A stretch of 64,000 nt of DNA, taken from positions 35,335 to 99,334 of the forward strand of contig JAKSUC010000002.1 in NCBI GenBank assembly GCA_024413595.1. The letters are read 5' to 3'. The notes below the pieces were generated by a model. It saw only the letters and a program-made list of their open reading frames with translations, did no database searches and was not told the origin of the DNA. The translations under genes and the position numbers were made by a program. Below are positions 14,782 through 30,251 of the stretch, piece by piece (position 1 is the first letter of the stretch; each line of letters starts with the position of its first letter). Source of the DNA: Bacteroidales bacterium (GTDB lineage Bacteria; Bacteroidota; Bacteroidia; Bacteroidales; UBA3824).

Positions 14782-15432
14782 TTTTTTTATTTAATTAGAT
14801 GATTATTAGTTTTTTTCAAATTAATAGTTAGAATAGATTTATAATTAATTAACACGACAAACTTAGTTAATTTTTTATTAACTAACTATTTTTTGAGATT
14901 TTTTTTTAATAAAAAATGTTAAATGAAATAATGTTTTTAATTCAGTATTTAGTGTTATAAAATATAAAAAAGGAGAAAAATTTATTTTCTCCTTTTTTAA
15001 TTATTCATGAATTAACTAAAAAGCCATACCTTCCACCGAATAAACAATCGGTTTTTCTTTAGAATTTGTTTTAACATAAATTTCGCGAACAAATTCTTCT
15101 GGTTTATCGGTTTTGAAAGATACTGAAACTATTGCAGAATCAGACTTTTTAATTACAGATTTGTCAATTTTTGCAGTAGTACATTCACAAGATGTAAAAA
15201 TTGTATCAATTTTCATTTCTACTAAACTATCATTTTTCAATACAAACTGAGTTTTCATAGTATCCGAAAAAGGGAAACGTCCAAACGAAAAACGGTTTTC
15301 ATTTTGATTATCAGCAATATTTATATTTGTTGTATCAATTCCCAAACGTTCACAAATTGTACGAATATATAGGTCTTTGATTTTGGGATTTTGAACTGGA
15401 TTACCAATTAGAATTACGCGATTGTTTTCGTC
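14664..15432. repeat. segmental duplication block, copy 1 (MFP 5' end, intergenic region, terminator, DUF1573 and the thioredoxin-fold gene 3' half)
   Basis: By-eye alignment shows near-identity with 17641-18403. The 15016-15432 part is also near-identical to 21248-21659. Confidence 0.85.
14971..14993 (-). terminator. rho-independent terminator after cassette 1
   Basis: AGGAGAAAA-attta-TTTTCTCCT flanked by A6 and T6 runs. It is 23 nt downstream of the stop of the 15016..15879 gene. Confidence 0.8.
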
Positions 15433-15879
15433 AAGAAGGAAACATCTAAATTGTTCTTTATCAGGAAAATGATTTAATTTGTTAAAAGAATCATTTATAT
15501 CAATACAAGTTGGATAATTATAATCGGATGTAATAATTTCAAACAAAGCTTCACTTTGACGTTTTGGACTTATATATTTTAAAATCAAAACATTATTATT
15601 AGTAAGAGATAATATATTTTGATTTAAAGTTTTCCATTCGTGCAACTTTAATTGACAACCTATGCAACCTTTTGGATCTGTATAAGTAACAATTTTTAGT
15701 TTATTATCATTGCAATTTATCTTTAAAGTATCATAACCAGATAAAAAAATAGAGCTATCAGAAAAAATAATCTCTTTATTACTCCAATCTTTTATAAGTT
15801 GTTCTATATCATTCTTTACTTGATTTTGACAAGAAATACAAATAAATATAGACAAAATTATAAAGTAAAACTTTTTCAT
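15016..15879 (-). CDS. cassette 1: thioredoxin-fold (TlpA/redoxin-like, CxxC) lipoprotein fused to a DUF1573 domain
   Basis: 287 aa. Lipobox FICISC, the redoxin pattern KIVTYTDPKGCIGCQ and FLLDENNRVILIG, and a C-terminal DUF1573-like beta-sandwich (FSFGRF...FVLKNDS...TSCECTTAKID...). Confidence 0.7.
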   Translation of the reverse strand: MKKFYFIILSIFICISCQNQVKNDIEQLIKDWSNKEIIFSDSSIFLSGYDTLKINCNDNKLKIVTYTDPKGCIGCQLKLHEWKTLNQNILSLTNNNVLILKYISPKRQSEALFEIITSDYNYPTCIDINDSFNKLNHFPDKEQFRCFLLDENNRVILIGNPVQNPKIKDLYIRTICERLGIDTTNINIADNQNENRFSFGRFPFSDTMKTQFVLKNDSLVEMKIDTIFTSCECTTAKIDKSVIKKSDSAIVSVSFKTDKPEEFVREIYVKTNSKEKPIVYSVEGMAF

Positions 15880-16886
15880 TTATTTTCTAAATTAATTTCA
15901 TCTAAATCTAAATATCCAAGTTGAATTTCATCGTCAAATGTAAAAATTAAACGATTATTACTTTCATCATAACAGAAATTTTTAATATTATAACCAACAT
16001 CAAATGTTGAAATATACTCACCGTTTTTATTAAAAACAATGCATTTTGTTGTAATTATTGGGTTTTGCTCAAATTTTCCACCATTGTAGATACAAACTAG
16101 ATATTTATTGGTAAAAAGAGAGTTCCCAAAACATATTAAACCTTCTTCATCCCAATCTGGACCATAAATATTACTTATTAAATTACCATTAAAATCAGCT
16201 ATACTAATCAAATCATACCATATATTACATTCTGCATAAATACTATCTTTATACGAAACTGCTAAAACAAAACGATTTTGTTTAAATTCTTTATGAAAAT
16301 TATTAAATAATTCAATTTTTCCTGATTTAATATTCCATTTTCCTGTTAATGCAGTTGTTTTATTATACCCAATTTCTGCCATAACTCGACATAAAGAAAA
16401 TGTATCATTAGCGTAAATGTATTGTAGTGGATAATTGTCATTTGAGATATGGTATTTTTCAATAGGAGAAAATCTATTATTGATTAAAAGGCTATCTAAT
16501 TTATAAGCTAAAATTTCACATTTTCCACCATCTTGAACATATATTTCGCGAGTAATTTCATTCCAAGATAATTCTCCAGGAATAGTTATTTCATTTGGAC
16601 TTTGTCCTATATTTCCAAATGGTAATACATAATTAAAATTATTTTTGTTAAATAAATGAATTACAGATTCTAACGATTTCGTATCTTTTATAGCTAAATA
16701 TTCACCTATTATGTATGGTACAGAACTATTACTAAAGTAAATCGTATCTATATTAATTTTATGAATTAATTGATTTACATTAATTATATTGTTGCGTTTC
16801 GTTTGATAAATCTCAGTTTTTGAATTATTTTGACAAGCAATAGTTGTAATTAAAATAATCAAAATAAATATCTTTTTCATACTCAA
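15876..16886 (-). CDS. cassette 1: 6-bladed beta-propeller-type lipoprotein (BF3164-like family)
   Basis: 336 aa. Lipobox TTIAC and the motif FGNIGQSPNEI, shared as G-x-GP-x-E/D with the paralogs at 18864, 22127 and 28645. ATGA overlap with the downstream gene. Confidence 0.6.
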   Translation of the reverse strand: MSMKKIFILIILITTIACQNNSKTEIYQTKRNNIINVNQLIHKINIDTIYFSNSSVPYIIGEYLAIKDTKSLESVIHLFNKNNFNYVLPFGNIGQSPNEITIPGELSWNEITREIYVQDGGKCEILAYKLDSLLINNRFSPIEKYHISNDNYPLQYIYANDTFSLCRVMAEIGYNKTTALTGKWNIKSGKIELFNNFHKEFKQNRFVLAVSYKDSIYAECNIWYDLISIADFNGNLISNIYGPDWDEEGLICFGNSLFTNKYLVCIYNGGKFEQNPIITTKCIVFNKNGEYISTFDVGYNIKNFCYDESNNRLIFTFDDEIQLGYLDLDEINLENK

Positions 16887-16895
16887 AATATTAAT

Positions 16896-16940
16896 TTTAT
16901 AGTTCGCTTGTAAATATTAATATCACAAGCAAACTATAAA
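16896..16940 (-). promoter_or_regulatory. intercistronic stem-loop directly 3' of peptide gene 1
   Basis: The 16-bp arms at 16896-16911 and 16925-16940 pair fully except for one position. That position is C.A on the plus strand but G.U on the minus (sense) strand. Confidence 0.65.
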
Positions 16941-16958
16941 ATATTAATTTATAATCAA

Positions 16959-17183
16959 TTATCTAGGACATAAATTTGCATTTAATAAGTCATTACGATG
17001 ACCATTACAATCACATCCGCCAGTCCAATCTTTACAACCATATGGACAACCACTTTCCCCTTGTGCCAAAAGTTCTACATTTTCCATTTGTAATTCAGAC
17101 AAATTATTATTATTATTGTTTATTTGGAATACGCCAAACACTACTGCAACTGCAACTGCTACCGATATAATTAATTTTTTCAT
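16959..17183 (-). CDS. cassette 1: NVEALA-motif small Cys-rich secreted peptide
   Basis: 74 aa: MKKLIISVAVAVAVVFGVFQ, poly-N, LSELQMENVELLAQGE, then the core SGCPYGCKDWTGGCDCNGHRNDLLNANLCPR (5 Cys). Confidence 0.8.
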   Translation of the reverse strand: MKKLIISVAVAVAVVFGVFQINNNNNNLSELQMENVELLAQGESGCPYGCKDWTGGCDCNGHRNDLLNANLCPR

Positions 17184-17505
17184 TTTTGTATAAAATTTGT
17201 GAATTTTCTCAGACTATGATAAATTTTTATCTCTAAGAAAAATTAATAAATAAATTTATAAAAAAAGATACACTTAAAAATTTTAGTTAAGTGTCGTTAT
17301 CGCACATTAATTTCTTGAATTATGTTGACAACTTTTTGGATGGTTAATACGTTTAAGTTTTCGTAGCTTTATTATTTAAAGTTAGACAATAGGGGAAATG
17401 GTTGAGAAGTTTGGAGGACGTCCGCAATCACTCCCCTTTTTTTATAACCATATTTTTCTTAATGATTACGAAACAAATGTATAGTAGTAATTTTACATTT
17501 CCAAA
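17184..17505 (-). promoter_or_regulatory. promoter plus ~280-nt conserved 5' leader of peptide gene 1 (copy A)
   Basis: On the minus strand, TTTG (17502-17505) and TAcaTTTG (17474-17481) are separated by a 20-nt spacer. The leader holds two conserved hairpins: ACACTTAA/TTAAGTGT at 17270-17294, and AGGGGA...TCCCCT at 17391-17437 followed by T7 on the plus strand. It is roughly 90% identical by eye to 20838-21157 and 24086-24409. Confidence 0.6.
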
Positions 17506-17640
17506 TATTTTTTCATCTTTTTTTTATTTTTTTGCGTATTGAATATAAAATATTGATTATTAATTAGTATTATACAAAAAATAGAATAATATTCGAAAAT
17601 ATATTGATTACACAAATTTAAATAACCACATTTTTTGTAG

Positions 17641-17758
17641 TAACTTGTTGACGGTCTTCAATAAGAATGTTTTGTTGACGTTCTTTTTCTGGCTTTTCTT
17701 TTGAAGAACAAGAAACCAGAATCAAAGAGATAGTTGATAGTATTAATCCGTATTTCAC
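17641..17758 (-). pseudogene. duplicated 5' fragment of the MFP adaptor gene
   Basis: The minus strand reads (GTG)KYGLILSTISLILVSCSSKEKPEKERQQNILIEDRQQVTT, then diverges and stops. It matches the first ~41 codons of the 13738..14781 gene, and the upstream region is duplicated as well. Confidence 0.85.
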
Positions 17759-17941
17759 TTTTTTATATATTAGATGATTATTAGTTTTTCAAATTAATAG
17801 TTAAAATAGATTTATAATTAATTAACACGATAAACTTAGTTAATTTTTTATTAATAAACTATTTTTTGCGATTTTTTTTAATAAAAAATGTTAAATGAAA
17901 TAATGTTTTTAATTCAATATTTAGTGTTAAAAATATAAAAA

Positions 17942-17964
17942 AGGAGAAAAATTTATTTTCTCCT
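17942..17964 (-). terminator. rho-independent terminator after cassette 2 (duplicate of 14971-14993)
   Basis: Same AGGAGAAAA-attta-TTTTCTCCT hairpin with flanking A and T runs. Confidence 0.8.
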
Positions 17965-17986
17965 TTTTTAATTATTTATGAATTAA

Positions 17987-18187
17987 CTAAAAAGCCATAC
18001 CTTCCACTGAATAAACAATAGGTTTTTCGTTAGAATTTGTTTTAACATAAACTTCACGCGAAAACTCTTCAGGTTTATCGGTTTTGAAAGTTACAGAAAT
18101 AATTGCAGAATCAGACTTTTTAATTACAGATTTGTCAATTTTTGCAGTAGTACATTCACAAGATGTAAAAATTGTATCAATTTTCAT
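17987..18187 (-). CDS. cassette 2: DUF1573 C-terminal segment, cut off from the thioredoxin-fold ORF by an in-frame TAA
   Basis: 66 aa, nearly identical to residues 222-287 of the cassette 1 fusion protein. It is in frame with 18209..18862 across a TAA at 18209-18211. Confidence 0.6.
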   Translation of the reverse strand: MKIDTIFTSCECTTAKIDKSVIKKSDSAIISVTFKTDKPEEFSREVYVKTNSNEKPIVYSVEGMAF

Positions 18188-18208
18188 TTCTAATAAACTA
18201 TCATTTTT

Positions 18209-18862
18209 TTAAACAAACTGAGTTTTCATTGTATCCGAAAATGGAAAACGTCCAAATGAAAAACGGTTTTCTTTTTGATTTTCAGCAATATTTATATTTG
18301 TTGTATCAATTCCCAAACGTTCGCAAATTGTACGAATATATAGGTCTTTGATTTTAGGATTTTGAACTGGATTGCCAATAAGAATTACGCGATTGTTTTC
18401 GTCTAATAAAAAACAATGAAAACGTTCATCTGACGGAAAATTATTTAGTATGTTTAGAGAATCGTTATAATCAATGAAAATAGGATAATCAAAACCACTA
18501 GTTTTAAGAATAGTTTTGAAATTTCGTGTCTGAATAATATCATCTTTAGGATTAAATGTTATAATAGTTGGACATTTGTTATCAGAAAGTTTCATAATTT
18601 GTTTAATAAAATTATTCCAAACTTCTAATTTTAATTTACAACTTGAACATCCAGAAGAATCTATATATCTAAGCAATTTTACTTTACTTTTGACTTCTAA
18701 TATATTATTGTCTTTATTTGTTGTATAAAAATTTATATCTTGTGGAAATTCTATTTTTTTATTTGTCCATTGCGCAAATAAATCATAAGATTTTTTTGCT
18801 GTATCATTACAAGATATTAATGTTATAATTAAGACAAATATTAATACAAATTTAGTTTTCAT
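18209..18862 (-). CDS. cassette 2: thioredoxin-fold (CxxC) lipoprotein, truncated within the DUF1573 domain
   Basis: The likely start is MKTKFVLIFVLIITLISC (ATG at 18860-18862), since the track ORF extends to 18889. CxxC motif SGCSSCKLKL. The C-terminal half is identical to cassettes 1 and 3. Confidence 0.65.
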   Translation of the reverse strand: MKTKFVLIFVLIITLISCNDTAKKSYDLFAQWTNKKIEFPQDINFYTTNKDNNILEVKSKVKLLRYIDSSGCSSCKLKLEVWNNFIKQIMKLSDNKCPTIITFNPKDDIIQTRNFKTILKTSGFDYPIFIDYNDSLNILNNFPSDERFHCFLLDENNRVILIGNPVQNPKIKDLYIRTICERLGIDTTNINIAENQKENRFSFGRFPFSDTMKTQFV

Positions 18863-18863
18863 T

Positions 18864-19859
18864 CTATTCGTATTTGAATTTAACAACACTAAATTCTGGT
18901 GTTACAGCATAAATACATTTCTTGTTTTCATCAATACAAAAATTAAAAATTTGAGTATCCAAATTAAATATTTTAATTGGATTACCTTCGTAATCAAAAA
19001 CAAATATTTCATTAGAATATTCTTCATCAGCTTCAATAGGTTTTCCACTATATAAAGCCATAATATAATCAGAAGTTGATGCACAGCAAGGATAAGTATC
19101 TCTTTCAATATCACCTTTATGAGGCAAGTTCATTGGACCAATAATTCTTTTATATAATGTTAAATCACTATTATAAATATCAATCATATCATTAATTGAA
19201 TATGCAATTACAATTTTATCACGATGAGAATTATAGCTAATAGTACTATGTAAATAATTAGACCAATTATGTTCTAATGAAAATTCAGGATATAAAACAT
19301 TAGGATATGGAGCATACTTTATATTACTTGTTAATTTGGTATCAAATTCACACAACATCGTATCATTATTAGAATATAATGAAGTAATTAAATTTCCATT
19401 GTTATTCTGAATAAATGATGTTATAGTTTGATCAAATTGAATTTCTTCAATAGGAAGACAACCAATAGTTGTTACAAAGTCATCATATTTATATTTTCTT
19501 ATTAATCGAAAATGAGGCTCTGCAGCCATTACATAATCATCTGTAACAAATATGAAATTACATTGAACACTTTCATTAGGTCCCAATCCACTTGGAACGT
19601 TATATGTTAGAAAATTATTATTATTTAAATTAAATGTTTGAACAAAATAATCTCCTGATCTATTAATTATAAACAAAAGAGAATCTTTTAAATGAATTGA
19701 TAATGGATTCCAAATTGTATCAAGGTTCATTATTTCTCCATGTAATTTTACTTCCTTGAAATCTTCTCTATTTATTCTTATATAATCATTATTCGAGGTA
19801 TTGTTATTACATGAAGAGAAAATGATTAACGAAAATAATAATATTGTTAGCTTTTTCAT
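18864..19859 (-). CDS. cassette 2: 6-bladed beta-propeller-type lipoprotein
   Basis: 331 aa. Lipobox IFSSC and motif SGLGPNESVQC. Paralog of the 15876, 22127 and 28645 genes. Confidence 0.6.
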   Translation of the reverse strand: MKKLTILLFSLIIFSSCNNNTSNNDYIRINREDFKEVKLHGEIMNLDTIWNPLSIHLKDSLLFIINRSGDYFVQTFNLNNNNFLTYNVPSGLGPNESVQCNFIFVTDDYVMAAEPHFRLIRKYKYDDFVTTIGCLPIEEIQFDQTITSFIQNNNGNLITSLYSNNDTMLCEFDTKLTSNIKYAPYPNVLYPEFSLEHNWSNYLHSTISYNSHRDKIVIAYSINDMIDIYNSDLTLYKRIIGPMNLPHKGDIERDTYPCCASTSDYIMALYSGKPIEADEEYSNEIFVFDYEGNPIKIFNLDTQIFNFCIDENKKCIYAVTPEFSVVKFKYE

Positions 19860-19861
19860 TT

Positions 19862-20509
19862 TTATATATTTTTAAGTTTATATGCTAGAATTTTTAACGA
19901 CTTTGTATTCATTAATATTCTATTAATCAATTGTTTAGAAATCAATTTAGTTTCTTGAATATTAAGAATTTGATTTAATAAAGATTGAGAAATATTTGCA
20001 TTTTTATCCACAATTAATACAAGTGGCGTTTCTTTATCATAAATCATTGGTTTTGTGTTAAATTTATAAAATTTAAAATATTCATTAGGTGAAGAATTTG
20101 GAATTTTATATTGAATATACATTTTTAAATTACTAAACACAAATAAAATATCATTATTTCTATATCCAGTTTTAAGAATATCAATATTTTCATTACATAT
20201 AAACTTACCAAAACCGATAGATAATTTTTGCCTCATTTCATAATTTTCATTATAAATAATTTCAGGCGTAGTAAAATTGCTTGATTTTTTTAAATCATAA
20301 TAGTTAATAGAAATATTCCCTATTAATGACTTAAAATCAATTGTTTGTTCTATAGAATTAAAAATAGCTTTTTTATAAATTTCGTATGTCTTTAAAAATT
20401 CTGCACTATATACTTCTTCAGTTTCTTCTTGCTCTTGAGCTAATAAATACTTATTATTAAATAGTAATAATAAAAGAATAAATGTATTTAATATAATTTG
20501 CTTGTTCAT
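19862..20509 (-). CDS. cassette 2: secreted accessory protein of unknown function
   Basis: Likely ATG at 20507-20509 (MNKQIILNTFILLLLLF...LLAQ signal). The C-terminal stretch PLVLIVDKNANISQSLLNQILNIQETK aligns with PLALVLNKKNNIPEDIINRVLSVKDTK of the 23155..23748 protein. Confidence 0.5.
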   Translation of the reverse strand: MNKQIILNTFILLLLLFNNKYLLAQEQEETEEVYSAEFLKTYEIYKKAIFNSIEQTIDFKSLIGNISINYYDLKKSSNFTTPEIIYNENYEMRQKLSIGFGKFICNENIDILKTGYRNNDILFVFSNLKMYIQYKIPNSSPNEYFKFYKFNTKPMIYDKETPLVLIVDKNANISQSLLNQILNIQETKLISKQLINRILMNTKSLKILAYKLKNI

Positions 20510-20523
20510 ATTATTTAAATATA

Positions 20524-20559
20524 ACAATTTTGGTAATAATCAATTATTACCAAAATTGT
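20524..20559 (-). promoter_or_regulatory. intercistronic stem-loop directly 3' of peptide gene 2
   Basis: Perfect 16-bp arms ACAATTTTGGTAATAA / TTATTACCAAAATTGT with a 4-nt loop. Confidence 0.7.
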
Positions 20560-20576
20560 ATTAAATTATCATTATT

Positions 20577-20837
20577 TTACATATGTCCTGTAATACATGG
20601 ATATGGACAACTACCATTGCATTTACTCCCACTTTGCGCACCAACACCTACAACATCACACCATTTATTATTGAAAAAAGCATTCTTACAACAATTATTA
20701 ATTATTTCACCATAATCAGCTAATGCTTCTAAATTATCCATTTGTAATTCACTCAATTGATTATTATTTTGATTAGCTTGGAATACACCAAATGCACTTG
20801 CTGCAATAAAAGCTACAGCGATAAATAATTTTTTCAT
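20577..20837 (-). CDS. cassette 2: NVEALA-motif small Cys-rich secreted peptide
   Basis: Likely start MKKLFIAVAFIAASAFGVFQANQNNNQLSELQMDNLEALADYGE (ATG at 20835-20837), then the core IINNCCKNAFFNNKWCDVVGVGAQSGSKCNGSCPYPCITGHM (6 Cys). Confidence 0.8.
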   Translation of the reverse strand: MKKLFIAVAFIAASAFGVFQANQNNNQLSELQMDNLEALADYGEIINNCCKNAFFNNKWCDVVGVGAQSGSKCNGSCPYPCITGHM

Positions 20838-21157
20838 TTTTGTTAAAATTTTGCATTTTCTTAGACTTTGAATATTTTTTACGTCCAAGAAAAAAATTAA
20901 TAATTTAATAGATAAAATAAATCCACTTAAAAATATAAATTAAGTGTCGTTATCGCACATTAATTCCTTGAATTATGTTGACAACTTTTTGGATGGTTAA
21001 TACGTTTAAGTTTTCATAGCTTTTTATTTAAAGTTAAACAATAGGGGAGATGGTTGAGAAGTTTGGAGGACGTCCGCAATCACTCCCCTTTTTTTATAAC
21101 CATATTTTTCTTAATGATTACGCAACAAATGTATAGTAGTTATTTTACATTTCCAAA
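20838..21157 (-). promoter_or_regulatory. promoter plus conserved 5' leader (copy B)
   Basis: On the minus strand, TTTG (21154-21157) and TAcaTTTG (21126-21133) with a 20-nt spacer. Same hairpins as copy A. Confidence 0.6.
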
Positions 21158-21247
21158 TATTTTTTCAATATTTTTTTGTTTTTTTAATATGATATATAAT
21201 TTTTTGATTATAAAATATTTAGTTTAACTGTTTTATTAAATTATGTA

Positions 21248-21451
21248 TTAATTTACAGCCACTCCATCTACTATATAGACGATCGGTTTTTCTTTAGAAT
21301 TCGTTTTTACATAAACTTCACGCGAAAATTCTTCTGGTTTGTCGGTTTTGAAAGATACTGAAACTATTGCAGAATCAGACTTTTTAATTACAGATTTGTC
21401 AATTTTTGCAGTAGTACATTCACAAGATGTAAAAATTGTATCAATTTTCAT
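21248..21451 (-). CDS. cassette 3: DUF1573 C-terminal segment after an in-frame TAA
   Basis: 67 aa, near-identical to 17987..18187 except for the last residues (VYIVDGVAVN). In frame with 21473..22126 across a TAA at 21473-21475. Confidence 0.6.
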   Translation of the reverse strand: MKIDTIFTSCECTTAKIDKSVIKKSDSAIVSVSFKTDKPEEFSREVYVKTNSKEKPIVYIVDGVAVN

Positions 21452-21659
21452 TTCTAATAAACTATCATTTTTTTAAACAAACTGAGTTTTCATTGTATCC
21501 GAAAATGGAAAACGTCCAAATGAAAAACGGTTTTCTTTTTGATTTTCAGCAATATTTATATTTGTTGTATCAATTCCCAAACGTTCGCAAATTGTACGAA
21601 TATATAGGTCTTTGATTTTGGGATTTTGAACGGGATTGCCAATAAGAATTACGCGATTG
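21248..21659. repeat. homogenised 3' block, copy 3
   Basis: Near-identical by eye to 15016-15432 and 17987-18403. Confidence 0.8.
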
Positions 21660-22126
21660 GAAGAATCGAGAAGGAAACAATGTAAATATTCTTCTGGAGG
21701 AAAACTATTTAAATTAAATATTTCATTTTTTTGATCTATAACAACAGGATGTTCAAAATAAGCCATTCTTAAATTAGTATGAATTTCTCTAATTTCATTT
21801 TTTTTATTTTTAGGATTAATTATAAATAATTTAGCGCACCTATTATTTGTTTTTGCATCAATATAACTAAAAAAATTATTCCAATCAGTTAAACGCATTT
21901 TGCAATTTGTACAGCCAGTTGAATCAATGTAAAACAATATTTTTAGTTCATTATTACTATTATACTCAATTGTATCAGTACCTAATTTCGTAAATATTAA
22001 ATTAGGTAATTTTATTGTTTTATTTGACCATTCATTAACAAGATTTATATAATTCTGTTTATTGTTACAAGAAAATAGTAAACATAATATAAATACAAAT
22101 GAAATTAAACTATAAAATTTATTCAT
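21473..22126 (-). CDS. cassette 3: thioredoxin-fold (CxxC) lipoprotein, truncated within the DUF1573 domain
   Basis: 217 aa. Lipobox LLFSC and CxxC motif TGCTNCKMRL. The divergent N-terminal half is followed by a C-terminal half identical to the other copies. Confidence 0.65.
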   Translation of the reverse strand: MNKFYSLISFVFILCLLFSCNNKQNYINLVNEWSNKTIKLPNLIFTKLGTDTIEYNSNNELKILFYIDSTGCTNCKMRLTDWNNFFSYIDAKTNNRCAKLFIINPKNKKNEIREIHTNLRMAYFEHPVVIDQKNEIFNLNSFPPEEYLHCFLLDSSNRVILIGNPVQNPKIKDLYIRTICERLGIDTTNINIAENQKENRFSFGRFPFSDTMKTQFV

Positions 22127-23179
22127 TTATTTATAATTAAATTTAACAATACTAAACTCTGGAGTTTCGGCAATTGCATAAATTGAATTATTTTCTTCAT
22201 CAACAGCCAAACCATATATGTCAATATTTAAATTGAAAACCTTAAAAGGATTTCCTTCATAATCAAAAACTAATATTTGATTTGGAATAGGATTATCTGG
22301 TGCAGTTTTCCCCTCATAATAGCAACACCAAATATATTTTTTTGTTAAACAACATAATACACATGATCTTTTAGTAGAAGAATTAGGACTTAAAAAGTTA
22401 TCACGTTCTACCATTAATGGTTCAAATCCTATTGGTCCGTGAACACGAGATATTAAATTTAAATCATTATCATAAATATCAAATATGTCTGTAAAAGCAT
22501 AAGGAACAACTATTCGTTCGTTGCTATCATTATAATAAATTCGATTTTGGAATGCAAATTTGTTCTCAATGTCTTTATAATTTTTAGAACTTTCCAAAAT
22601 AGGATATGGAGTATGTTTATCTATTTTATTACCTAAACTATCAAATAATGTTATGGTATTACTTGTATCAATATGACTTGCACCAACTAAATTATTATTA
22701 GATAACAAAACCATTGCGGTTGGATAATAATCTTTTGCTTCGTATGTTGCTATATTACAAATATGCGATTTTTCTAAAAAGTCTTTTTTAGAATATTTCA
22801 TTAGTTGATTTGTTTGTATACTAAATGACAAAATATAATCTTTCATAATCTGCAAAGACCAACAATCAAGACTTTCATTTGGACCAACACCAAAAGTAAT
22901 ATTTTCACATTTTTTTAATTTTGTCTCAAAATCAAATACTTGAGCAAAATTTTCTTGGGATTTATCTATTAATATTAGATTATTATCTTCAATAAAAATT
23001 TGAGTTGGTTTCCAAATCGAATCAAGATTAACAATCTCATAATCAAGATTTTCAATTGATTGAAAGTCATCATAGGTTATATTTTTGATTGACTTATCAA
23101 GATTATTTTCCGAATTGCAACTACAAATAAATATAGCAATTATTATATAAAAATTTATTTTTCCCATGTTTTTACACAA
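22127..23179 (-). CDS. cassette 3: 6-bladed beta-propeller-type lipoprotein
   Basis: 350 aa (start may be M5 at 23167). Lipobox FICSC and motif FGVGPNESLDC. Confidence 0.6.
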   Translation of the reverse strand: MCKNMGKINFYIIIAIFICSCNSENNLDKSIKNITYDDFQSIENLDYEIVNLDSIWKPTQIFIEDNNLILIDKSQENFAQVFDFETKLKKCENITFGVGPNESLDCWSLQIMKDYILSFSIQTNQLMKYSKKDFLEKSHICNIATYEAKDYYPTAMVLLSNNNLVGASHIDTSNTITLFDSLGNKIDKHTPYPILESSKNYKDIENKFAFQNRIYYNDSNERIVVPYAFTDIFDIYDNDLNLISRVHGPIGFEPLMVERDNFLSPNSSTKRSCVLCCLTKKYIWCCYYEGKTAPDNPIPNQILVFDYEGNPFKVFNLNIDIYGLAVDEENNSIYAIAETPEFSIVKFNYK

Positions 23180-23748
23180 AATGTTAATATTTCAAAATAA
23201 GTAGTATTATTTTTTATATAATTTATATCATTTTTATTTATTTCTTTAGTATCCTTTACTGATAAAACACGATTAATAATATCTTCTGGAATATTATTTT
23301 TTTTATTTAATACTAAAGCTAAAGGTATATATCTATTTGTTTTAAAATCTTGTATTTCAAATGGATATAAAATTATATTAATATTTTGATGCTCTCTTTT
23401 AAATGGAATATATAATGTTCCACGTGCTGTTGTTGTCATAACACAACAGATATCATTTTGATCTATTGCTAACGCAAAAATATGACTTAATGAACTATCA
23501 AAATCTTGATAAAAATAAGTTTTCCCATGAAAAAAGTCACTTTTTTCTTTTAAATTATAAGAAAAAACAAATAATCTTGCTTTTGCATTTAATATAGGAA
23601 TTTTATATTTTATATTACTGTTTTTTAGAATTATTGCGTGCGGATTTACAGATCCAGCTTGTAAACCAAATGATGCAACAGCAACTTCTCCTTGGGCATA
23701 AACATTATAACTTAAAAATACAAATATTAAAATAAAAAATATCTTCAT
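23155..23748 (-). CDS. cassette 3: secreted accessory protein of unknown function (homolog of 19862..20509)
   Basis: 197 aa with signal peptide MKIFFILIFVFLSYNVYAQ and C-terminal similarity to the cassette 2 accessory protein. Confidence 0.5.
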   Translation of the reverse strand: MKIFFILIFVFLSYNVYAQGEVAVASFGLQAGSVNPHAIILKNSNIKYKIPILNAKARLFVFSYNLKEKSDFFHGKTYFYQDFDSSLSHIFALAIDQNDICCVMTTTARGTLYIPFKREHQNINIILYPFEIQDFKTNRYIPLALVLNKKNNIPEDIINRVLSVKDTKEINKNDINYIKNNTTYFEILTFCVKTWEK

Positions 23749-23767
23749 AATAATACGAATAATTTAT

Positions 23768-23802
23768 AATTCTGTTATTGATATTAAATCAATAACAGAA
23801 TT
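23768..23802 (-). promoter_or_regulatory. intercistronic stem-loop directly 3' of peptide pseudogene 3
   Basis: Perfect 15-bp arms AATTCTGTTATTGAT / ATCAATAACAGAATT with a 5-nt loop. Confidence 0.7.
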
Positions 23803-23843
23803 AATCTATAATAAATAGCCTATTATATAATAAGCAAAATTTT

Positions 23844-24085
23844 TTAATTAGGATAACTATCAGGACAACGCTCAGTATATCCAGTACTTGTATACATTAT
23901 ATCACAATACCAATAAGGATTATAATGACATACCATACGACATCCATATGAAGCACTTTCACCTTGTGCCAAAAGTTCAGCATTTTCCATTTGTAATTCA
24001 CTCAATTGATTATTATTTTGATTAGCTTGGAATCACCAAATGCACTTGCTGCAATAAAAGCTACAGCGATAAATAATTTTTTCAT
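23844..24085 (-). pseudogene. cassette 3: NVEALA-motif peptide gene with a 1-nt deletion (frameshift)
   Basis: The span is 242 nt, which is not a multiple of 3. Compared with gene 2 (ggaatacaccaaatgc), this copy reads ggaatcaccaaatgc. The conceptual repair gives MKKLFIAVAFIAASAFGVFQANQNNNQLSELQMENAELLAQGE followed by SASYGCRMVCHYNPYWYCDIMYTSTGYTERCPDSYPN. Confidence 0.8.
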
Positions 24086-24409
24086 TTTTGTTAAAATTTT
24101 GCATTTTCTTAGACTTTGAATATTTTTTACGTCCAAGAAAAAAATTAATAATTTAATAGATAAAATAAATCCACTTAAAAATAAAAATTAAGTGTCGTTA
24201 TCGCACATTAATTCCTTGAATTATGTTGACAACTTTTGGATGGTTAATTCGTTTAAGTTTTCATAGCTTTATTATTTAAAGTTAGACAATAGGGGAAATG
24301 GTTGAGAAGTTTGGTAGACGTACGCAATCACTCCCCTTTTTATTTTTATAACCATATTTTTCTTAATGATTACGTAACAAATTTATGATAGTAATTTTAC
24401 ATTTCCAAA
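24086..24409 (-). promoter_or_regulatory. promoter plus conserved 5' leader (copy C)
   Basis: On the minus strand, TTTG (24406-24409) and TAaaTTTG (24378-24385) with a 20-nt spacer. Same hairpins as the other copies, with clustered substitutions at the tip of the GGGGA hairpin. Confidence 0.55.
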
Positions 24410-24538
24410 TATTTTTTCAACTTTTTTTTTGTTTTTTTTAATATGATATATAATTTTTTGATTATAAAATATTTAGTTTAACTGTTTTATTAAATTATTA
24501 TGTGTGTATTATATAATTTAAATACCAAATAAATGATT

Positions 24539-26230
24539 TTAATTATTAGTCTTAAATAGTTTTTCCATATTTTCCACTTTACTTCGCATTTCGCGAGTAG
24601 CTTCTGACTCAATTTTAATAAATTTATTCATAATTATTTCATATTCAGCCTTTCTGTTTTCAGGCTTAAAATAATTTTCATTTGCATATAACAAATATAA
24701 TAAGTAATGAGGATAAAGTCTATTCGGTAATCTGTGAGACGAACGAATATAATATTTTTCAGCTTCAGAATAATTATTTAAGTTTTGATAACATTCTCCA
24801 ATAACATTAAATATCATAGGATCAGAAAGATAATTAAGACATTTGTTTAATTCTATAATAGCATCTTGATATTTTTCTGTTTTATAAAGCGAATGTCCAT
24901 ATTCATAAAGAAATCTTCCATTCCAATCCATTTTATCTGACATTTCAGCATAATATTTGGCTGCTTTTGTGTAAACTTTCATATTATAAAACATTTGCGA
25001 TTTTTCCCATTTTTGCATTAAATCAATGCGTTCTGAATAAATTGGACGTTTTATAATCATAAATATTGCTAAAATAGAAAGTAAACTAGCTAAAATAATT
25101 TTATGATAAACATAATTTATGTTTTCTGGAATAATTAATCCAATAGTTAAAATAATCAGAAGTACCACAAATGCAGGTATTTGCATTGGGTAAGATGCAA
25201 AGCAAAAAACTAACAACGAAATTATTCCACCAACAAATTGAAATCTCTTATTTTTATGGGCAAAAAATATTGCAAAAACTAAAAATGCAATAATCAATAA
25301 AGTTAACGGAATTCCATATAATATTGCAAATTGTAAATATTCATTAAACGCATAATCAGGAGAAGTGGCAATATTTTCTTCGTTACCAATATTAAAATAT
25401 CCTTTTTTTTCAATAATGTTAGCAAAATATTTTTCTTGAGCGTTGCCGTATGCAGGTGAAAAAATGTCGTGCCCCGAAATTGGAGAATCCATTACAGCTA
25501 AAGTAGAAATTTTCCATAAAAATAATCTACCATTTGCCGACTCGCTTTTCACTTTCCAAATACCTATTCCAGCTAAAAATAATATTATAACACCTATTAT
25601 TAATAATAATTTTTTGTTGATTTTTATTTTGTCAAGATATTTTTTTAAAATTCCTGAGCATAATAAAACATATATGCAACCAAAACAACCTGAAATCCAA
25701 CTTGTTCTACTCATGGTTGATGGCAAAACAATTATTAATAAAACTAATGTAAAAATTAATATATAATATTGCGATAATATATTGATTTTCTGAAATTTAG
25801 TAATATTTTCAGATTTATTTAAATTTTCTTTTTTCACTTTGATATTCAGCCACATATTTAATGCAATAGGAAGTGTAATTGCCAAATATCCGCCTAAAGG
25901 TCCTGGATTATAAAACGAACCTGTTAATTTAAATATAGAGTGATTAGAATAAGAAAAACCGTATAATTGCATCAAAGAATAAAATGCTTCTATACAGCCA
26001 ACTATAACAATACACCATTCTAAAGTGGATAAAATATGTTTTTTTTCAACAAAAAAAATTGCTACTCCTATAATAATAATTGGAAAAATTCCACGTAAAC
26101 AAAATGAATTCCATTGAGAAATTTGCATTATTTCGTCGGATAGTTTTGCTACTCCATAATTTAGCATCAACCAATATATTACGCTAAAAAAGATTAATCC
26201 ACAAAATATTTTTCTAAGTGTATCAGTCAT
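24539..26230 (-). CDS. O-antigen ligase/polymerase-like (Wzy_C-type) membrane protein with C-terminal TPR repeats
   Basis: 563 aa with about 10 TM helices, a loop reading PSTMSRTSWISG, and a soluble TPR-like C-terminus (AAKYYAEM..., YQDAIIELNKCL..., YSEAEKYYIRS). Confidence 0.55.
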   Translation of the reverse strand: MTDTLRKIFCGLIFFSVIYWLMLNYGVAKLSDEIMQISQWNSFCLRGIFPIIIIGVAIFFVEKKHILSTLEWCIVIVGCIEAFYSLMQLYGFSYSNHSIFKLTGSFYNPGPLGGYLAITLPIALNMWLNIKVKKENLNKSENITKFQKINILSQYYILIFTLVLLIIVLPSTMSRTSWISGCFGCIYVLLCSGILKKYLDKIKINKKLLLIIGVIILFLAGIGIWKVKSESANGRLFLWKISTLAVMDSPISGHDIFSPAYGNAQEKYFANIIEKKGYFNIGNEENIATSPDYAFNEYLQFAILYGIPLTLLIIAFLVFAIFFAHKNKRFQFVGGIISLLVFCFASYPMQIPAFVVLLIILTIGLIIPENINYVYHKIILASLLSILAIFMIIKRPIYSERIDLMQKWEKSQMFYNMKVYTKAAKYYAEMSDKMDWNGRFLYEYGHSLYKTEKYQDAIIELNKCLNYLSDPMIFNVIGECYQNLNNYSEAEKYYIRSSHRLPNRLYPHYLLYLLYANENYFKPENRKAEYEIIMNKFIKIESEATREMRSKVENMEKLFKTNN

Positions 26231-26284
26231 AGTTTTTTGAAGTAAATGCTATCTTGATTTATTGTATAAAGTAAAGATTAATTG

Positions 26285-27331: not shown

Positions 27332-27376
27332 AGTCTATTTTGATGAATAATTTATTTTTGACAAAAGTATAAAAAA

Positions 27377-27402
27377 ACGGTTAGGAACAAAAATCCTAAC
27401 CG
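27377..27402 (-). terminator. rho-independent terminator after asd
   Basis: ACGGTTAGGA-acaaaa-TCCTAACCGT with an A7 run on one side and a T6 run on the other. Confidence 0.8.
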
Positions 27403-27424
27403 TTTTTTATGATAGATTATTTTT

Positions 27425-28644: not shown

Positions 28645-29685
28645 TTATTTTAATAAACTTTTATAAATTCCCATTTCATTTTTTGAAGAGTCTAATCCTA
28701 TTGCATATATTTCATCATTATGAATAGTAAATGAAGTAATTGGTATATTGGTTTTATATAGTTTTAATATATTACCTTTATAATCTATTTGATATATAAT
28801 GCTATTTACATTACCTTCCGAAACTTCTTTAAACGAATCATTCCAACATAGTGACCAAAAACTATCTTGATAAGCAATCACATACGTAAAATATGTTAAT
28901 TTTTCCTCATTATAAACTATTTCATTATTATTTATTTCAAAATTATTTTTGTCATAATCTTTAAAATAAAGTCTTCTATTTAATTTCATATTATTTATAG
29001 AAACTAAATCTATCATTTTATAGTTTTTATAAGCTATTACTATGTTTTTTTCATTAGCAGAATATGTCGATAGAAATATTTGCATTGTTAGACTAAATTT
29101 TGATAAATCTTTATATTTTTTAGGAATTTTGTAAAAATTATAATTTGAAATAGAATCTTTCTTTCTATCATAATATTGTATTTGATATTCTCCTGTTTTT
29201 GTGACAACTATAGCTGTATCATTATATAATAAAACATTATTAACCATAAAAAAATCTTTAGGTAAAGGTTTTTCTGTAATGTTTTCTTTACAATTTGAAT
29301 TTACAGAAACTTGTAAATATTTATAATCATCAACTATGTTAATAGCTTTTTCTTCATTTTTACCTTTTGATACTAAAAATGGAATAATGAAATCAGTTGG
29401 TCCTTGTCCTATATTTCCAAATTCTAGAATTAATGTATCTTTATAATATATCTTAAAAAAATTTTTTTTGACTTTTGTAAATTGCTCTGAAACAATAAAT
29501 AATGAATCAAGAAAACAACAATTTGTTGGTATTAATGGTTGTATATTTAATTTCAATGGCTTAAAATTTATTGTTGTTGTATCAATACTTATATTATCTA
29601 TAGGTTCTATTAATTGTTCTGAATTATTAGAACAACTTGTAATGTAAAATAGTAGTAATAATAAACACTTATAATATTTATTCAT
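28645..29685 (-). CDS. cassette 4: 6-bladed beta-propeller-type lipoprotein
   Basis: The likely start is MNKYYKCLLLLLFYITSC (ATG at 29683-29685). The track ORF extension to 29760 runs through a 21-bp-arm hairpin. Motif FGNIGQGPTDF. Confidence 0.6.
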   Translation of the reverse strand: MNKYYKCLLLLLFYITSCSNNSEQLIEPIDNISIDTTTINFKPLKLNIQPLIPTNCCFLDSLFIVSEQFTKVKKNFFKIYYKDTLILEFGNIGQGPTDFIIPFLVSKGKNEEKAINIVDDYKYLQVSVNSNCKENITEKPLPKDFFMVNNVLLYNDTAIVVTKTGEYQIQYYDRKKDSISNYNFYKIPKKYKDLSKFSLTMQIFLSTYSANEKNIVIAYKNYKMIDLVSINNMKLNRRLYFKDYDKNNFEINNNEIVYNEEKLTYFTYVIAYQDSFWSLCWNDSFKEVSEGNVNSIIYQIDYKGNILKLYKTNIPITSFTIHNDEIYAIGLDSSKNEMGIYKSLLK

Positions 29686-29716
29686 AAATAAAATATTTTT
29701 AATTAGTGAAATATTT

Positions 29717-29767
29717 TTAATTAGTGAATAAATATATGATTTTATAATATATTTATTCACTAATTAA
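29717..29767 (-). promoter_or_regulatory. intercistronic stem-loop directly 3' of peptide gene 4
   Basis: Perfect 21-bp arms TTAATTAGTGAATAAATATAT / ATATATTTATTCACTAATTAA with a 9-nt loop. Confidence 0.7.
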
Positions 29768-29799
29768 TTATAATGATATTAGGTTTGTAGAATATATAA

Positions 29800-30087
29800 T
29801 TATTTACATCTTCTAATAACTTCTACGCAAGCAACTGAACTACAAGAACAATCACGAGAACAAATATTATTTTCCCACATATAGTTTGAAACACGGTATT
29901 CTGCAATACCCCAATCACAATTATTACTACCTCCACCACCTGAGCTTTCTCCATTTTCTGCACCCAATGCTAGTAATTCTACATTTTCCATTTGTAAATC
30001 ACTCAATTGATTATTATTTTGATTTGCTTGGAATATACCAAAAGCACCTGCAGCTACTATGGCTACTGATATAAAAAGTTTTTTCAT
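29800..30087 (-). CDS. cassette 4: NVEALA-motif small Cys-rich secreted peptide
   Basis: 95 aa: MKKLFISVAIVAAGAFGIFQANQNNNQLSDLQMENVELLALGAE, then the core NGESSGGGGSNNCDWGIAEYRVSNYMWENNICSRDCSCSSVACVEVIRRCK (6 Cys). Confidence 0.8.
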   Translation of the reverse strand: MKKLFISVAIVAAGAFGIFQANQNNNQLSDLQMENVELLALGAENGESSGGGGSNNCDWGIAEYRVSNYMWENNICSRDCSCSSVACVEVIRRCK

Positions 30088-30219: not shown

Positions 30220-30251
30220 CAAATATAGAAAACGCATTTTTTATTTCCAAA
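30220..30251 (-). promoter_or_regulatory. promoter of peptide gene 4
   Basis: On the minus strand, TTTG (30248-30251) and TAtaTTTG (30220-30227) with a 20-nt spacer. It shares the AAAATATTTGGAAA context with the three other peptide promoters. Confidence 0.55.

What the first reader, a model, noticed from the sequence alone, without database searches (positions are those of the whole stretch)
16896..23802. A long, sequence-unrelated perfect inverted repeat sits directly 3' of every peptide ORF
Each cassette has a hairpin just after its peptide stop codon:
- Cassette 1: 16-bp arms at 16896-16940.
- Cassette 2: 16-bp arms at 20524-20559.
- Cassette 3: 15-bp arms at 23768-23802.
- Cassette 4: 21-bp arms at 29717-29767.

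They lie 17-41 nt after the stop and before the next gene. The four hairpins share no sequence, so position and structure are conserved but sequence is not. The single imperfect pair, in cassette 1, is C.A on the plus strand but G.U on the sense (minus) strand, which fits a function in the mRNA. None is followed by a clean U-run. They therefore look like partial terminators, processing sites or 3' stabilisers that uncouple peptide abundance from the downstream genes, as seen after precursor genes in many bacteriocin/RiPP operons.
Basis: seen in the sequence. Interest (0 to 1): 0.65.

Follow-up and report, generated by a model that had tools for sequence, protein, structure and literature searches.

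The report
Stem-loops after NVEALA peptide genes
Each of four small secreted-peptide genes (NVEALA family) in this Bacteroidales genome is followed by a long RNA hairpin just before the next gene, and relatives keep a hairpin there with unrelated sequence, so it most likely lets the cell make far more peptide message than message for the partner genes, a familiar trick in bacteriocin operons.

Summary
All four NVEALA-family (PF14055) peptide genes in the window, on the minus strand, are followed by a 16-21 bp stem-loop. The stems start 16-40 nt after the stop codon and end 13-31 nt before the next ATG. Predicted energies are -16 to -23 kcal/mol, against 0 comparable repeats in composition-matched shuffles.

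The hairpin is a family trait:
- In related loci from other Bacteroidales assemblies, 18 of 21 NVEALA stops are followed by a strong hairpin, against 14 of 51 other co-directional gaps (p=1e-5).
- The hairpin sequences are mutually unrelated.
- The sense strand folds better: 30 G.U pairs against 8, and better energies and z-scores (p about 0.002-0.003).
- One orthologous pair shows two compensatory pair changes.

Most hairpins lack a U-tract. The window's ordinary gene-end terminators have clear A/T-run flanks. No promoter motif lies between the peptide gene and the next gene.

The best reading is an intercistronic mRNA element, either a leaky terminator or a processing/3'-stabiliser hairpin. 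It would give a peptide-only transcript in excess over read-through, as with mccA-mccB.

Long inverted repeats are common in this genome's intergenic DNA, as terminators, so size alone is not special. This is a new member of a known kind, of modest interest.

The parts
16894..16942 (-). H1: stem-loop after peptide gene 1. 18-20 bp, with one U.G pair on the sense strand.
   Evidence: Energy is -22.7 kcal/mol on the sense strand and -15.2 on the antisense. It starts 16 nt after the stop and ends 13 nt before the next ATG.
20524..20559 (-). H2: perfect 16-bp stem-loop with a 4-nt loop, after peptide gene 2.
   Evidence: Energy is -16.1 kcal/mol. It starts 17 nt after the stop and ends 14 nt before the ATG. 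The tail is UAUAUUUAAA.
23767..23803 (-). H3: perfect 16-bp stem-loop with a 5-nt loop, after peptide gene 3.
   Evidence: Energy is -17.5 kcal/mol. It starts 40 nt after the stop and ends 18 nt before the ATG.
29717..29767 (-). H4: perfect 21-bp stem-loop with a 9-nt loop, after peptide gene 4. Its 3' arm is followed by a tandem duplicate of TTCACTAATTAAAAATAT.
   Evidence: Energy is -19.5 kcal/mol. It starts 32 nt after the stop and ends 31 nt before the ATG.
16959..17183 (-). Peptide gene 1. NVEALA family, 74 aa: signal-like N-terminus, LQMENVELLA motif, Cys-rich variable C-terminus.
   Evidence: Pfam PF14055, E=1.6e-9. Alignments.
20577..20837 (-). Peptide gene 2. NVEALA family, 86 aa.
   Evidence: Pfam PF14055, E=1.2e-8. 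Identical to an NCBI 'NVEALA domain-containing protein [Bacteroidales bacterium]'.
23844..24086 (-). Peptide gene 3. NVEALA family, interrupted by a 1-nt deletion in the signal/leader region.
   Evidence: The profile hits two adjacent ORF pieces.
29800..30087 (-). Peptide gene 4. NVEALA family, 95 aa.
   Evidence: Pfam PF14055, E=4.2e-7.
15876..16880 (-). First gene after H1. 334 aa, a distant relative of the TolB-like six-bladed propeller proteins.
   Evidence: Alignment with the propeller genes of cassettes 2 and 3. Syntenic genes in relatives carry TolB_like, DUF4221 or DUF5128.
19862..20509 (-). First gene after H2. 215 aa with no family match, followed by a TolB_like propeller gene at 18864-19859.
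23155..23748 (-). First gene after H3. 197 aa with no family match, followed by a TolB_like propeller gene at 22127-23179.
28645..29685 (-). First gene after H4. 346 aa, a distant propeller-like protein.
17474..17505 (-). Candidate Bacteroidetes-type promoter of cassette 1 (TTTG, 20 nt, TACATTTG). It implies a 5' leader of about 290 nt.
   Evidence: The same motif is conserved upstream of all four cassettes. The leader is 88-91% identical among cassettes 1-3.
21126..21157 (-). Candidate promoter of cassette 2.
24378..24409 (-). Candidate promoter of cassette 3.
30220..30251 (-). Candidate promoter of cassette 4 (TTTG, 20 nt, TATATTTG).
14965..14999 (-). Canonical terminator with A-run and T-run flanks that closes cassette 1. 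Included as a contrast to H1-H4.
17936..17970 (-). Identical canonical terminator that closes cassette 2. Included as a contrast.

Best explanation
Each cassette is one operon. It runs from a Bacteroidetes-type promoter through a long 5' leader, the NVEALA peptide gene and the stem-loop, into the propeller / thioredoxin-like-DUF1573 genes.

The stem-loop forms in the sense mRNA between the peptide gene and the next gene and defines a 3' end there. This could happen by inefficient (leaky) intrinsic termination, or by blocking 3'-to-5' exonucleases after cleavage, possibly by an RNase III-type enzyme acting on these unusually long perfect stems.

The result would be an abundant, stable, peptide-only transcript plus a minor read-through transcript that supplies the downstream proteins. 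Peptide would then be made in large excess over its partner proteins.

What is shown: the presence, position, structural conservation, sense-strand bias and operon context of the hairpins. What is inferred: that RNA 3' ends form there, and that the peptide/partner ratio is the selected effect.
For: - **Real and non-random.** (11 perfect inverted repeats of at least 14 bp against 0 in shuffles).
- **Conserved in position and structure, not in sequence, across the family.**
  - 18 of 21 NVEALA stops have a local fold of -15 kcal/mol or better within 100 nt, against 14 of 51 other co-directional gaps of at least 50 nt, 7% of packed gaps and 26% of convergent ends. Fisher p=1.2e-5.
  - In a separate shuffle test, 23 of 26 downstream regions beat at least 99% of shuffles.
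  - The 22 hairpins have stems of 10-23 bp. They start a median of 25 nt after the stop and end a median of 18 nt before the next ATG.
  - There is no sequence similarity among non-orthologous hairpins.
  - The most distant family member sampled (L031) also has an 18-bp hairpin, 27 nt after its stop.
- **RNA-level, sense-strand signal.**
  - Mean energy is -20.1 kcal/mol on the sense strand against -17.5 on the antisense (Wilcoxon p=0.002).
  - G.U pairs number 30 on the sense strand against 8 on the antisense (binomial p=5e-4).
  - Composition-controlled z-scores are -4.5 against -4.0 (p=0.003).
  - The L031 hairpin folds on the sense strand only (z -3.6 against -0.9).
  - H1 has one U.G pair on the sense strand.
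- **Compensatory change.** The orthologous hairpins of L008 and L016 differ by two compensatory pair changes: T-A to C-G, and T.G to A-T.
- **Operon context.**
  - Only 13-31 nt separate each hairpin from the next ATG.
  - No TAnnTTTG motif lies between the peptide start and the downstream ATG.
  - A conserved TTTG-N20-TAnnTTTG promoter sits upstream of every peptide gene.
  - In relatives, the gap after the NVEALA gene is 66-116 nt, whereas the other genes of the operon overlap or abut.
- **Not ordinary full terminators.** The U-tract is missing in most. T averages 3.9 of the 8 nt after the stem against a 41% background, and only 5 of 22 have at least 5 T. The window's other gene-end hairpins carry T runs of 4-8 with matching A runs.
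- **Experimental precedent.** The mccA-mccB intergenic terminator gives a roughly 20:1 excess of a short, stable peptide transcript. That arrangement is conserved between E. coli and H. pylori without sequence conservation (PMC4231749).
Against: - No transcript data were available, so no 3' end, coverage step or half-life has been shown.
- Hairpins without a U-tract are poor intrinsic terminators for the RNA polymerases studied so far. The termination variant is therefore weak for most members, and the processing/stabiliser variant has no direct support either.
- Within the window, H2-H4 are perfect palindromes that fold equally well on both strands. The strand argument is a family-level statistic of moderate size.
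- Part of the raw sense bias reflects slight G+T richness of the sense strand.
- The comparison set is 22-23 loci, mostly from related gut and rumen Bacteroidales assemblies. It is not the whole PF14055 family.
- Cassettes 2 and 3 carry decayed genes (a frameshift and a nonsense codon), so not every hairpin in the window need be under current selection.
Confidence: 0.6

Rival explanations
1. The hairpins are ordinary, efficient terminators that end a monocistronic peptide gene. The downstream genes are transcribed from their own promoters.
For: - In this window, hairpins of the same size almost always sit 9-21 nt after a stop codon as terminators.
- H2 passes a lenient terminator scan.
- A few relatives (L003, L015, L001a, L009a) have T-rich tails.
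Against: - Only 13-31 nt separate each hairpin from the next ATG.
- No TAnnTTTG motif occurs within or after the peptide genes.
- 17 of 22 hairpins lack a U-tract, unlike the genome's clear terminators.
- Downstream genes follow at a tight, conserved distance in every locus.
Confidence: 0.12
2. The hairpin mainly tunes translation of the downstream gene. Bacteroidetes lack Shine-Dalgarno-led initiation and depend on unstructured, A-rich start regions, so a stable structure placed about 18 nt upstream could limit or position ribosome loading or reinitiation.
For: The distance from stem to ATG is narrow (8-32 nt, median 18) across loci. That is tighter than the distance from stop to stem (1-50 nt).
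Against: - The stems never include the start codon.
- The 13-31 nt between stem and ATG are AU-rich and unstructured in the predicted folds.
- A short, minimal spacer is also what a terminator or stabiliser packed into an operon would leave.
Confidence: 0.12
3. The repeats act at the DNA level. They would be palindromic protein-binding sites, or structure-specific recombination sites that delimit exchangeable cassettes, in the manner of integron attC sites.
For: - Conservation of structure and position without sequence, directly after a cassette ORF, is also the hallmark of attC sites.
- The cassettes are mosaics, with conserved 5' and 3' blocks and a variable middle.
- H2-H4 are perfect DNA palindromes.
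Against: - There are no attC core sites (RYYYAAC / GTTRRRY) in or around any of the four hairpins, and the perfect stems carry no extrahelical bases.
- No integrase or recombinase was found among the window's annotated genes.
- The homology breakpoints lie 130-180 nt upstream of the hairpins, at the leader/core junction, not at the hairpins.
- Family-wide G.U asymmetry favours the sense RNA.
- With every hairpin sequence different, each would need its own binding protein.
Confidence: 0.04
4. The repeats are chance palindromes or slippage products of very AT-rich, low-complexity intergenic DNA and have no function.
For: - The local G+C of the four window gaps is only 12-16%.
- H1 and H4 are flanked by short direct repeats.
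- Cassettes 2 and 3 contain decayed genes.
Against: - Shuffles give 0 perfect inverted repeats of at least 14 bp, against 11 observed.
- Z-scores are -3.8 to -7.1.
- Relatives whose post-stop regions reach 30-36% G+C also keep a hairpin at this position.
Confidence: 0.02

Closest known systems
The mccA-mccB intergenic terminator of the microcin C operon (Zukher et al. 2014, PMC4231749)
   Same: - A short peptide gene comes first in the operon.
- A hairpin lies in the gap before the genes that handle the peptide.
- The outcome is an abundant, stable, peptide-only RNA plus a minor read-through RNA.
- The arrangement is conserved between species without sequence conservation.
   Different: - mccA encodes 7 residues, and termination there depends on a ribosome bound to the message. 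Here the ORFs are 74-95 codons, and the stop-to-stem distance varies from 1 to 50 nt, so a fixed ribosome-hairpin geometry is unlikely.
- The mcc element is a functional intrinsic terminator. Most NVEALA hairpins lack a U-tract.
- The host phylum, the peptide family and the partner genes are all different.
Inverted repeats after lantibiotic and bacteriocin structural genes, for example between nisA and nisB (recalled from general knowledge; no supporting paper was found in the library)
   Same: A hairpin directly after the precursor gene, thought to allow limited read-through into the modification and export genes and to stabilise the precursor mRNA.
   Different: - Those are Gram-positive operons with recognised modification enzymes.
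- NVEALA loci encode no known peptide-modifying enzyme. Their partners are six-bladed propeller lipoprotein-like proteins, a CxxC thioredoxin-like/DUF1573 protein, an S26 peptidase, a Wzy_C/TPR protein and an RND pump.
Intercistronic 3'-stabiliser hairpins that give segmental mRNA stability, such as REP elements in malEFG and the puf operon hairpins (general knowledge)
   Same: A stable stem-loop without a U-tract, lying between cistrons of one operon. It would protect the upstream segment from 3' exonucleases and so raise the upstream gene's expression relative to the downstream genes.
   Different: REP elements are a repeated sequence family. Here every hairpin is unique in sequence, and differential decay has not been measured.
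Canonical Rho-independent terminators of the same genome
   Same: Similar stem length (13-16 bp) and similar distance after a stop codon (9-21 nt).
   Different: - The genome's terminators have a G+C-containing core flanked by an A-run and a T-run, and they stand at operon ends.
- H1-H4 have stems of 10-20% G+C and no adjoining T-run, and the next gene follows within 13-31 nt.

Membership tests
Intrinsic (Rho-independent) terminator | A stable stem-loop shortly after the stop codon, on the transcribed strand | tested here: met
   Energies are -16 to -23 kcal/mol, and the stems start 16-40 nt after the stop.
Intrinsic (Rho-independent) terminator | A U-tract of about 5-9 nt immediately after the stem | tested here: not met
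   - The tails are UAAUAUUUUG, UAUAUUUAAA, UAAAUUAUUC and AAAUAUUUCA.
- Across the family, only 5 of 22 hairpins have at least 5 T in the 8 nt after the stem, and the mean of 3.9 T is close to background.
- The window's other gene-end hairpins do have T runs.
Intrinsic (Rho-independent) terminator | RNA 3' ends map at the base of the hairpin | not testable with these tools
   No transcriptome or Term-seq data were available.
Precursor-peptide attenuator of bacteriocin or microcin operons (mccA type) | A short secreted or precursor peptide gene is promoter-proximal, with its partner genes downstream in the same operon | tested here: met
   - A promoter motif lies upstream of each peptide gene and none lies downstream of it.
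- Gene order is conserved in relatives.
Precursor-peptide attenuator of bacteriocin or microcin operons (mccA type) | A hairpin in the gap between the peptide gene and the next gene, conserved in place but not in sequence | tested here: met
Precursor-peptide attenuator of bacteriocin or microcin operons (mccA type) | Two transcripts from one promoter: an abundant short one and a minor long one | not testable with these tools
   This needs a Northern blot, RNA-seq or Term-seq.
Precursor-peptide attenuator of bacteriocin or microcin operons (mccA type) | The peptide is a substrate of downstream enzymes, or an exported bioactive product | tested here: inconclusive
   - The peptides have a signal-like N-terminus, a conserved leader motif and hypervariable Cys-rich cores.
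- The partner genes include a CxxC thioredoxin-like protein, an S26 peptidase and an RND pump.
- No known modifying enzyme is present, and no paper was found on the family.
Intercistronic mRNA 3'-stabiliser / RNase III processing hairpin | A long, near-perfect stem between cistrons, without terminator features | tested here: met
   Stems are 16-21 bp in the window and 10-23 bp in relatives, and most lack a U-tract.
Intercistronic mRNA 3'-stabiliser / RNase III processing hairpin | Cleavage or exonuclease stalling at the hairpin, and a longer half-life for the upstream segment | not testable with these tools
   This needs RNA end mapping and decay measurements in wild type and in RNase mutants.
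Integron attC recombination site | Conserved R''/R' core sites (RYYYAAC ... GTTRRRY) at the ends of the imperfect palindrome | tested here: not met
   No match on either strand, in or within 15 nt of any of the four hairpins.
Integron attC recombination site | An integron integrase nearby | tested here: not met
   Pfam annotation of 50 of the 52 ORFs called in the window shows no integrase or recombinase.
Any described RNA family (Rfam 15) | A covariance-model match | tested here: not met
   The only match in the window is a tRNA. Nothing matches in 16500-30500 at E up to 1 except a chance sRNA hit elsewhere.

The most novel reading that the evidence does not exclude
The stem-loop is an obligatory, family-wide part of an uncharacterised Bacteroidales peptide system. 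That system comprises an NVEALA peptide with a conserved leader and a hypervariable Cys-rich core, plus a six-bladed propeller protein, a thioredoxin-like/DUF1573 protein, an S26 peptidase, a Wzy_C/TPR protein and an RND pump.

In this reading the hairpin works by a mechanism other than classical U-tract termination. One candidate is RNase III-type cleavage of the long perfect stems. Another is U-tract-independent, factor-assisted termination by the Bacteroidetes RNA polymerase. The hairpin would travel with each exchangeable core-plus-partner module. This would mark NVEALA peptides as high-copy secreted products, whether bacteriocins or signals, and would give a first handle on their regulation.
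Probability: 0.25. Interest if true: 0.55.

Novelty: new member of a known kind. Interest (0 to 1): 0.3.

Why it matters
NVEALA (PF14055) is a widespread Bacteroidales peptide family. The full-text search found no paper that names it.

A conserved hairpin directly after these genes, with unrelated sequences, matches the arrangement seen after bacteriocin and microcin precursor genes. This supports the view that NVEALA peptides are abundant, exported products whose partner genes are needed only in small amounts.

It also gives a simple structural signature for annotating such loci: leader motif, then variable Cys-rich core, then hairpin, then propeller gene. The sites to mutate or map in a first experiment are precisely defined.

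It does not reveal a new kind of regulation.

Tried and rejected
- **Collection scans with the NVEALA motif.** Scans of the genome and metagenome collections with LQ[ML]ENVE[LA]L gave only 2 + 2 confirmed loci. The comparison set therefore came from exact-protein look-ups.
- **Word-indexed protein search with peptide 2.** It found only the peptide itself.
- **Rfam.** No family matches the hairpins or the conserved 5' leader.
- **Literature.**
  - No paper mentions NVEALA.
  - Nothing useful was found for the partner domains.
  - One Bacteroides terminator search failed on syntax, and the repeat gave nothing specific.
  - Searches for lantibiotic read-through hairpins found nothing usable.
- **Selenocysteine idea.** The thioredoxin-like/DUF1573 gene is split in cassettes 2 and 3, and cassette 1's copy weakly matches the OS_HP2 (seleno)protein family. 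This idea is rejected: the in-frame stop is TAA, replacing a TTA Leu codon.
- **attC-like recombination sites.** Rejected.
- **TAnnTTTG motif alone as a promoter test.** The 20 matches on the sense strand of the 19.5-kb region searched equal the number expected by chance (my own estimate from base composition). Only the four copies that are conserved and have a -33 TTTG at the right spacing were accepted.
- **T-run comparison with 'other' strong hairpins in related loci.** This was uninformative, because many of those lie inside coding sequence of higher G+C. Only the within-window contrast was used.

Full report
**What is there**

All relevant genes lie on the minus strand. A Pfam scan and a family profile find exactly four NVEALA-family (PF14055) peptide genes in the window: 16959-17183, 20577-20837, 23844-24086 (frameshifted) and 29800-30087. 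Each has a signal-like N-terminus, a conserved '...LSELQMENVELLA' leader motif and a variable Cys-rich C-terminus. The peptides are identical to proteins that NCBI names 'NVEALA domain-containing protein [Bacteroidales bacterium]', from a 131-kb assembled contig.

| Hairpin | Coordinates | Stem | Energy (kcal/mol) |
|---|---|---|---|
| H1 | 16894-16942 | 18-20 bp, one U.G on the sense strand | -22.7 sense, -15.2 plus |
| H2 | 20524-20559 | 16 bp perfect | -16.1 |
| H3 | 23767-23803 | 16 bp perfect | -17.5 |
| H4 | 29717-29767 | 21 bp perfect | -19.5 |

The stems begin 16, 17, 40 and 32 nt after the stop. They end 13, 14, 18 and 31 nt before the ATG of the next co-directional gene.

**Chance**

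The intergenic segments fold far better than dinucleotide shuffles, with z-scores of -3.8 to -7.1. The window contains 11 perfect inverted repeats of at least 14 bp, whereas ten shuffles that keep local composition gave none.

Such repeats are nevertheless not rare in this genome's intergenic DNA. Apart from a four-unit tandem array at 3342-3536, the other strong hairpins sit 9-21 nt after stop codons. Most have a G+C-containing core flanked by an A-run and a T-run, which makes them ordinary bidirectional terminators. Examples are 14965-14999, 17936-17970, 27372-27408, 34366-34402 and 44988-45025.

What sets H1-H4 apart is not length. They lie inside an operon, they lack the A/T-run flanks, and their stems have only 10-20% G+C.

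**Related loci**

A profile search finds 385 representative family members. Exact-protein look-ups returned loci L003-L031 from other Bacteroidales assemblies, and motif scans added L001, L002, L021 and L022.

Gene order is conserved: NVEALA gene, then a six-bladed propeller protein (TolB_like, DUF4221 or DUF5128), a DUF1573 protein, a protein of about 646 aa, a Peptidase_S26, a Wzy_C/TPR protein and RND pump components. The gap after the NVEALA gene is 66-116 nt, whereas the other genes overlap or abut.

- 23 of 26 non-redundant downstream regions fold better than at least 99% of shuffles.
- 18 of 21 NVEALA stops have a local fold of -15 kcal/mol or better within 100 nt. The figure is 14 of 51 for other co-directional gaps of at least 50 nt, 7% for packed gaps and 26% for convergent ends. 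Fisher p=1.2e-5.
- The 22 clear hairpins have 10-23 pairs (median 15.5). They start 1-50 nt after the stop (median 25) and end 8-32 nt before the next ATG (median 18).
- Apart from near-identical orthologues, none resembles another in sequence.
- The most distant member sampled (L031) has an 18-bp hairpin 27 nt after its stop.
- The exceptions are truncated NVEALA remnants (L023, L024) and two genes whose successor starts within 3-15 nt (L002, L019 at 7998).

**RNA or DNA?**

Across the family the sense strand folds better than the antisense:

- Mean energy is -20.1 against -17.5 kcal/mol (Wilcoxon p=0.002).
- G.U pairs number 30 against 8 (p=5e-4).
- After controlling for strand composition with dinucleotide shuffles, z-scores are -4.5 against -4.0 (p=0.003).
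- The L031 hairpin exists only on the sense strand.
- Two orthologous hairpins (L008 and L016, whose peptides are about 80% identical) differ by two compensatory pair changes, plus one two-base disruption.

In the window itself only H1 is asymmetric. The effect is moderate, and the hairpin segments used for the G.U count were chosen from the sense fold. I therefore treat this as good but not conclusive evidence for function in the sense mRNA.

**Operon context**

A Bacteroidetes-type promoter (TTTG, about 20 nt, TAnnTTTG) is conserved upstream of all four peptide genes, with the -7 box starting at 17481, 21133, 24385 and 30227. This implies 5' leaders of about 290 nt for cassettes 1-3 and about 130 nt for cassette 4. 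No such motif lies between any peptide start codon and the downstream ATG. The -7 motif alone occurs at chance frequency, so only the conserved, correctly spaced copies count.

Cassettes 1-3 share an 85-95% identical 5' block (promoter, leader, signal/leader peptide) and an 87-90% identical 3' block. The core peptide, the hairpin and the first downstream genes are unrelated between cassettes. The hairpin lies 130-180 nt inside the variable module, not at a homology breakpoint.

**Mechanism**

The best-supported reading is an intercistronic mRNA stem-loop that creates a 3' end after the peptide gene. This could be leaky termination, or a barrier or processing site that leaves a stable peptide-only RNA. 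Read-through would supply the partner genes at a lower level.

The experimental precedent is the mccA-mccB terminator. There, a short stable peptide RNA outnumbers the polycistronic RNA about 20:1, and the scheme is conserved between species without sequence conservation (PMC4231749).

The lack of a U-tract argues against efficient classical termination. T averages 3.9 of the 8 nt after the stem against a 41% background, and only 5 of 22 hairpins have at least 5 T. The unusually long perfect stems make a stabiliser or RNase III-type site at least as likely. Sequence alone cannot decide between these.

**Rivals**

- **Full terminators with separate downstream promoters.** There is no room and no motif for such promoters.
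- **Control of downstream translation.** The stems never cover the start region, although the tight stem-to-ATG spacing keeps this reading alive.
- **DNA-level recombination or binding sites.** There are no attC cores, no integrase was found in the window, the breakpoints lie elsewhere and the folding bias favours the sense strand.
- **Chance.** Excluded by the shuffles and by the conservation in relatives.

**Comparison and novelty**

No Rfam family matches, and no paper in the library mentions NVEALA. Hairpins after precursor-peptide genes are a known device. That NVEALA genes carry one as a family trait appears to be unreported, but it is a new member of a known kind. Interest is modest, at about 0.3.

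The larger open question is what the NVEALA-propeller-thioredoxin-like system does.

Noticed in passing
window 23844-24086 (-), near 24030: The cassette 3 NVEALA gene has a 1-nt deletion in its signal/leader region relative to cassette 2 (GGTGTATTCC becomes GGTGATTCC). Only a 53-aa ORF starting at the leader motif remains. It is probably a pseudogene, yet its hairpin is perfect.
   Followed up: partly
window 18209-18211 (-), and the equivalent site in cassette 3 around 21470: The thioredoxin-like (CxxC)/DUF1573 gene is intact in cassette 1 (15016-15879, 287 aa). In cassette 2 it is cut by a TTA-to-TAA nonsense codon, and cassette 3 shows the same split ORF with an identical protein sequence up to the break. 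The gene weakly matches the OS_HP2 (seleno)protein family, so I checked for an in-frame TGA. The stop is TAA, so this is not selenocysteine.
   Followed up: yes
window 17184-17533, 20838-21185, 24087-24437 (-): Cassettes 1-3 share an 88-91% identical leader of about 290 nt between the candidate promoter and the peptide ATG. It contains potential stems (for example GGGGAG...TTCCCC, and CACTTAA...TTAAGTG). It has no Rfam match and no counterpart in the related loci. It may be a regulatory 5' UTR.
   Followed up: partly
window 14928-15518, 17900-18489, 21213-21715 and the 5' blocks listed above: Cassettes 1-3 are mosaics. The 5' and 3' ends are near-identical, while the middle (core peptide, hairpin, propeller genes) is unrelated. 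This suggests module exchange by recombination in the conserved flanks.
   Followed up: partly
window 3342-3536: Four tandem 53-nt units lie in the divergent gap between tatA (2971-3177, minus) and an ATPase_2 gene (3580-5028, plus). Each holds a 15-bp palindrome (ATTTGGCAAAATAAG ... CTTATTTTGCCAAAT).
   Followed up: no
window 29690-29735 (-): The 3' arm of H4 is followed by a tandem duplicate (TTCACTAATTAAAAATAT, two copies). The 5' arm could therefore pair with either copy, giving alternative hairpins.
   Followed up: no
window 49661-49694: A perfect 15-bp inverted repeat (-19.4 kcal/mol) lies inside the first 20 codons of the 5-formyltetrahydrofolate cyclo-ligase ORF (49186-49722, minus). 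It is about 70 nt after the stop of the upstream glycosyltransferase gene.
   Followed up: no
loci L003-L016, L028-L031; window 10660-32094: A conserved Bacteroidales locus: NVEALA peptide, six-bladed propeller, DUF1573/thioredoxin-like protein, a protein of about 646 aa, Peptidase_S26, Wzy_C/TPR protein, and RND membrane-fusion and AcrB proteins. No paper on it was found. In the window, the genes for the ~646-aa protein and the S26 peptidase are absent, and asd and a CNNM gene are inserted between cassettes 4 and 3.
   Followed up: partly
L019 3567-3878, 9557-9910, 10142-10495: Further ORFs of 103-117 aa precede DUF5128 propeller genes and are followed by strong hairpins, but they were not caught by the NVEALA profile. 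They may be divergent members of the same peptide class.
   Followed up: no
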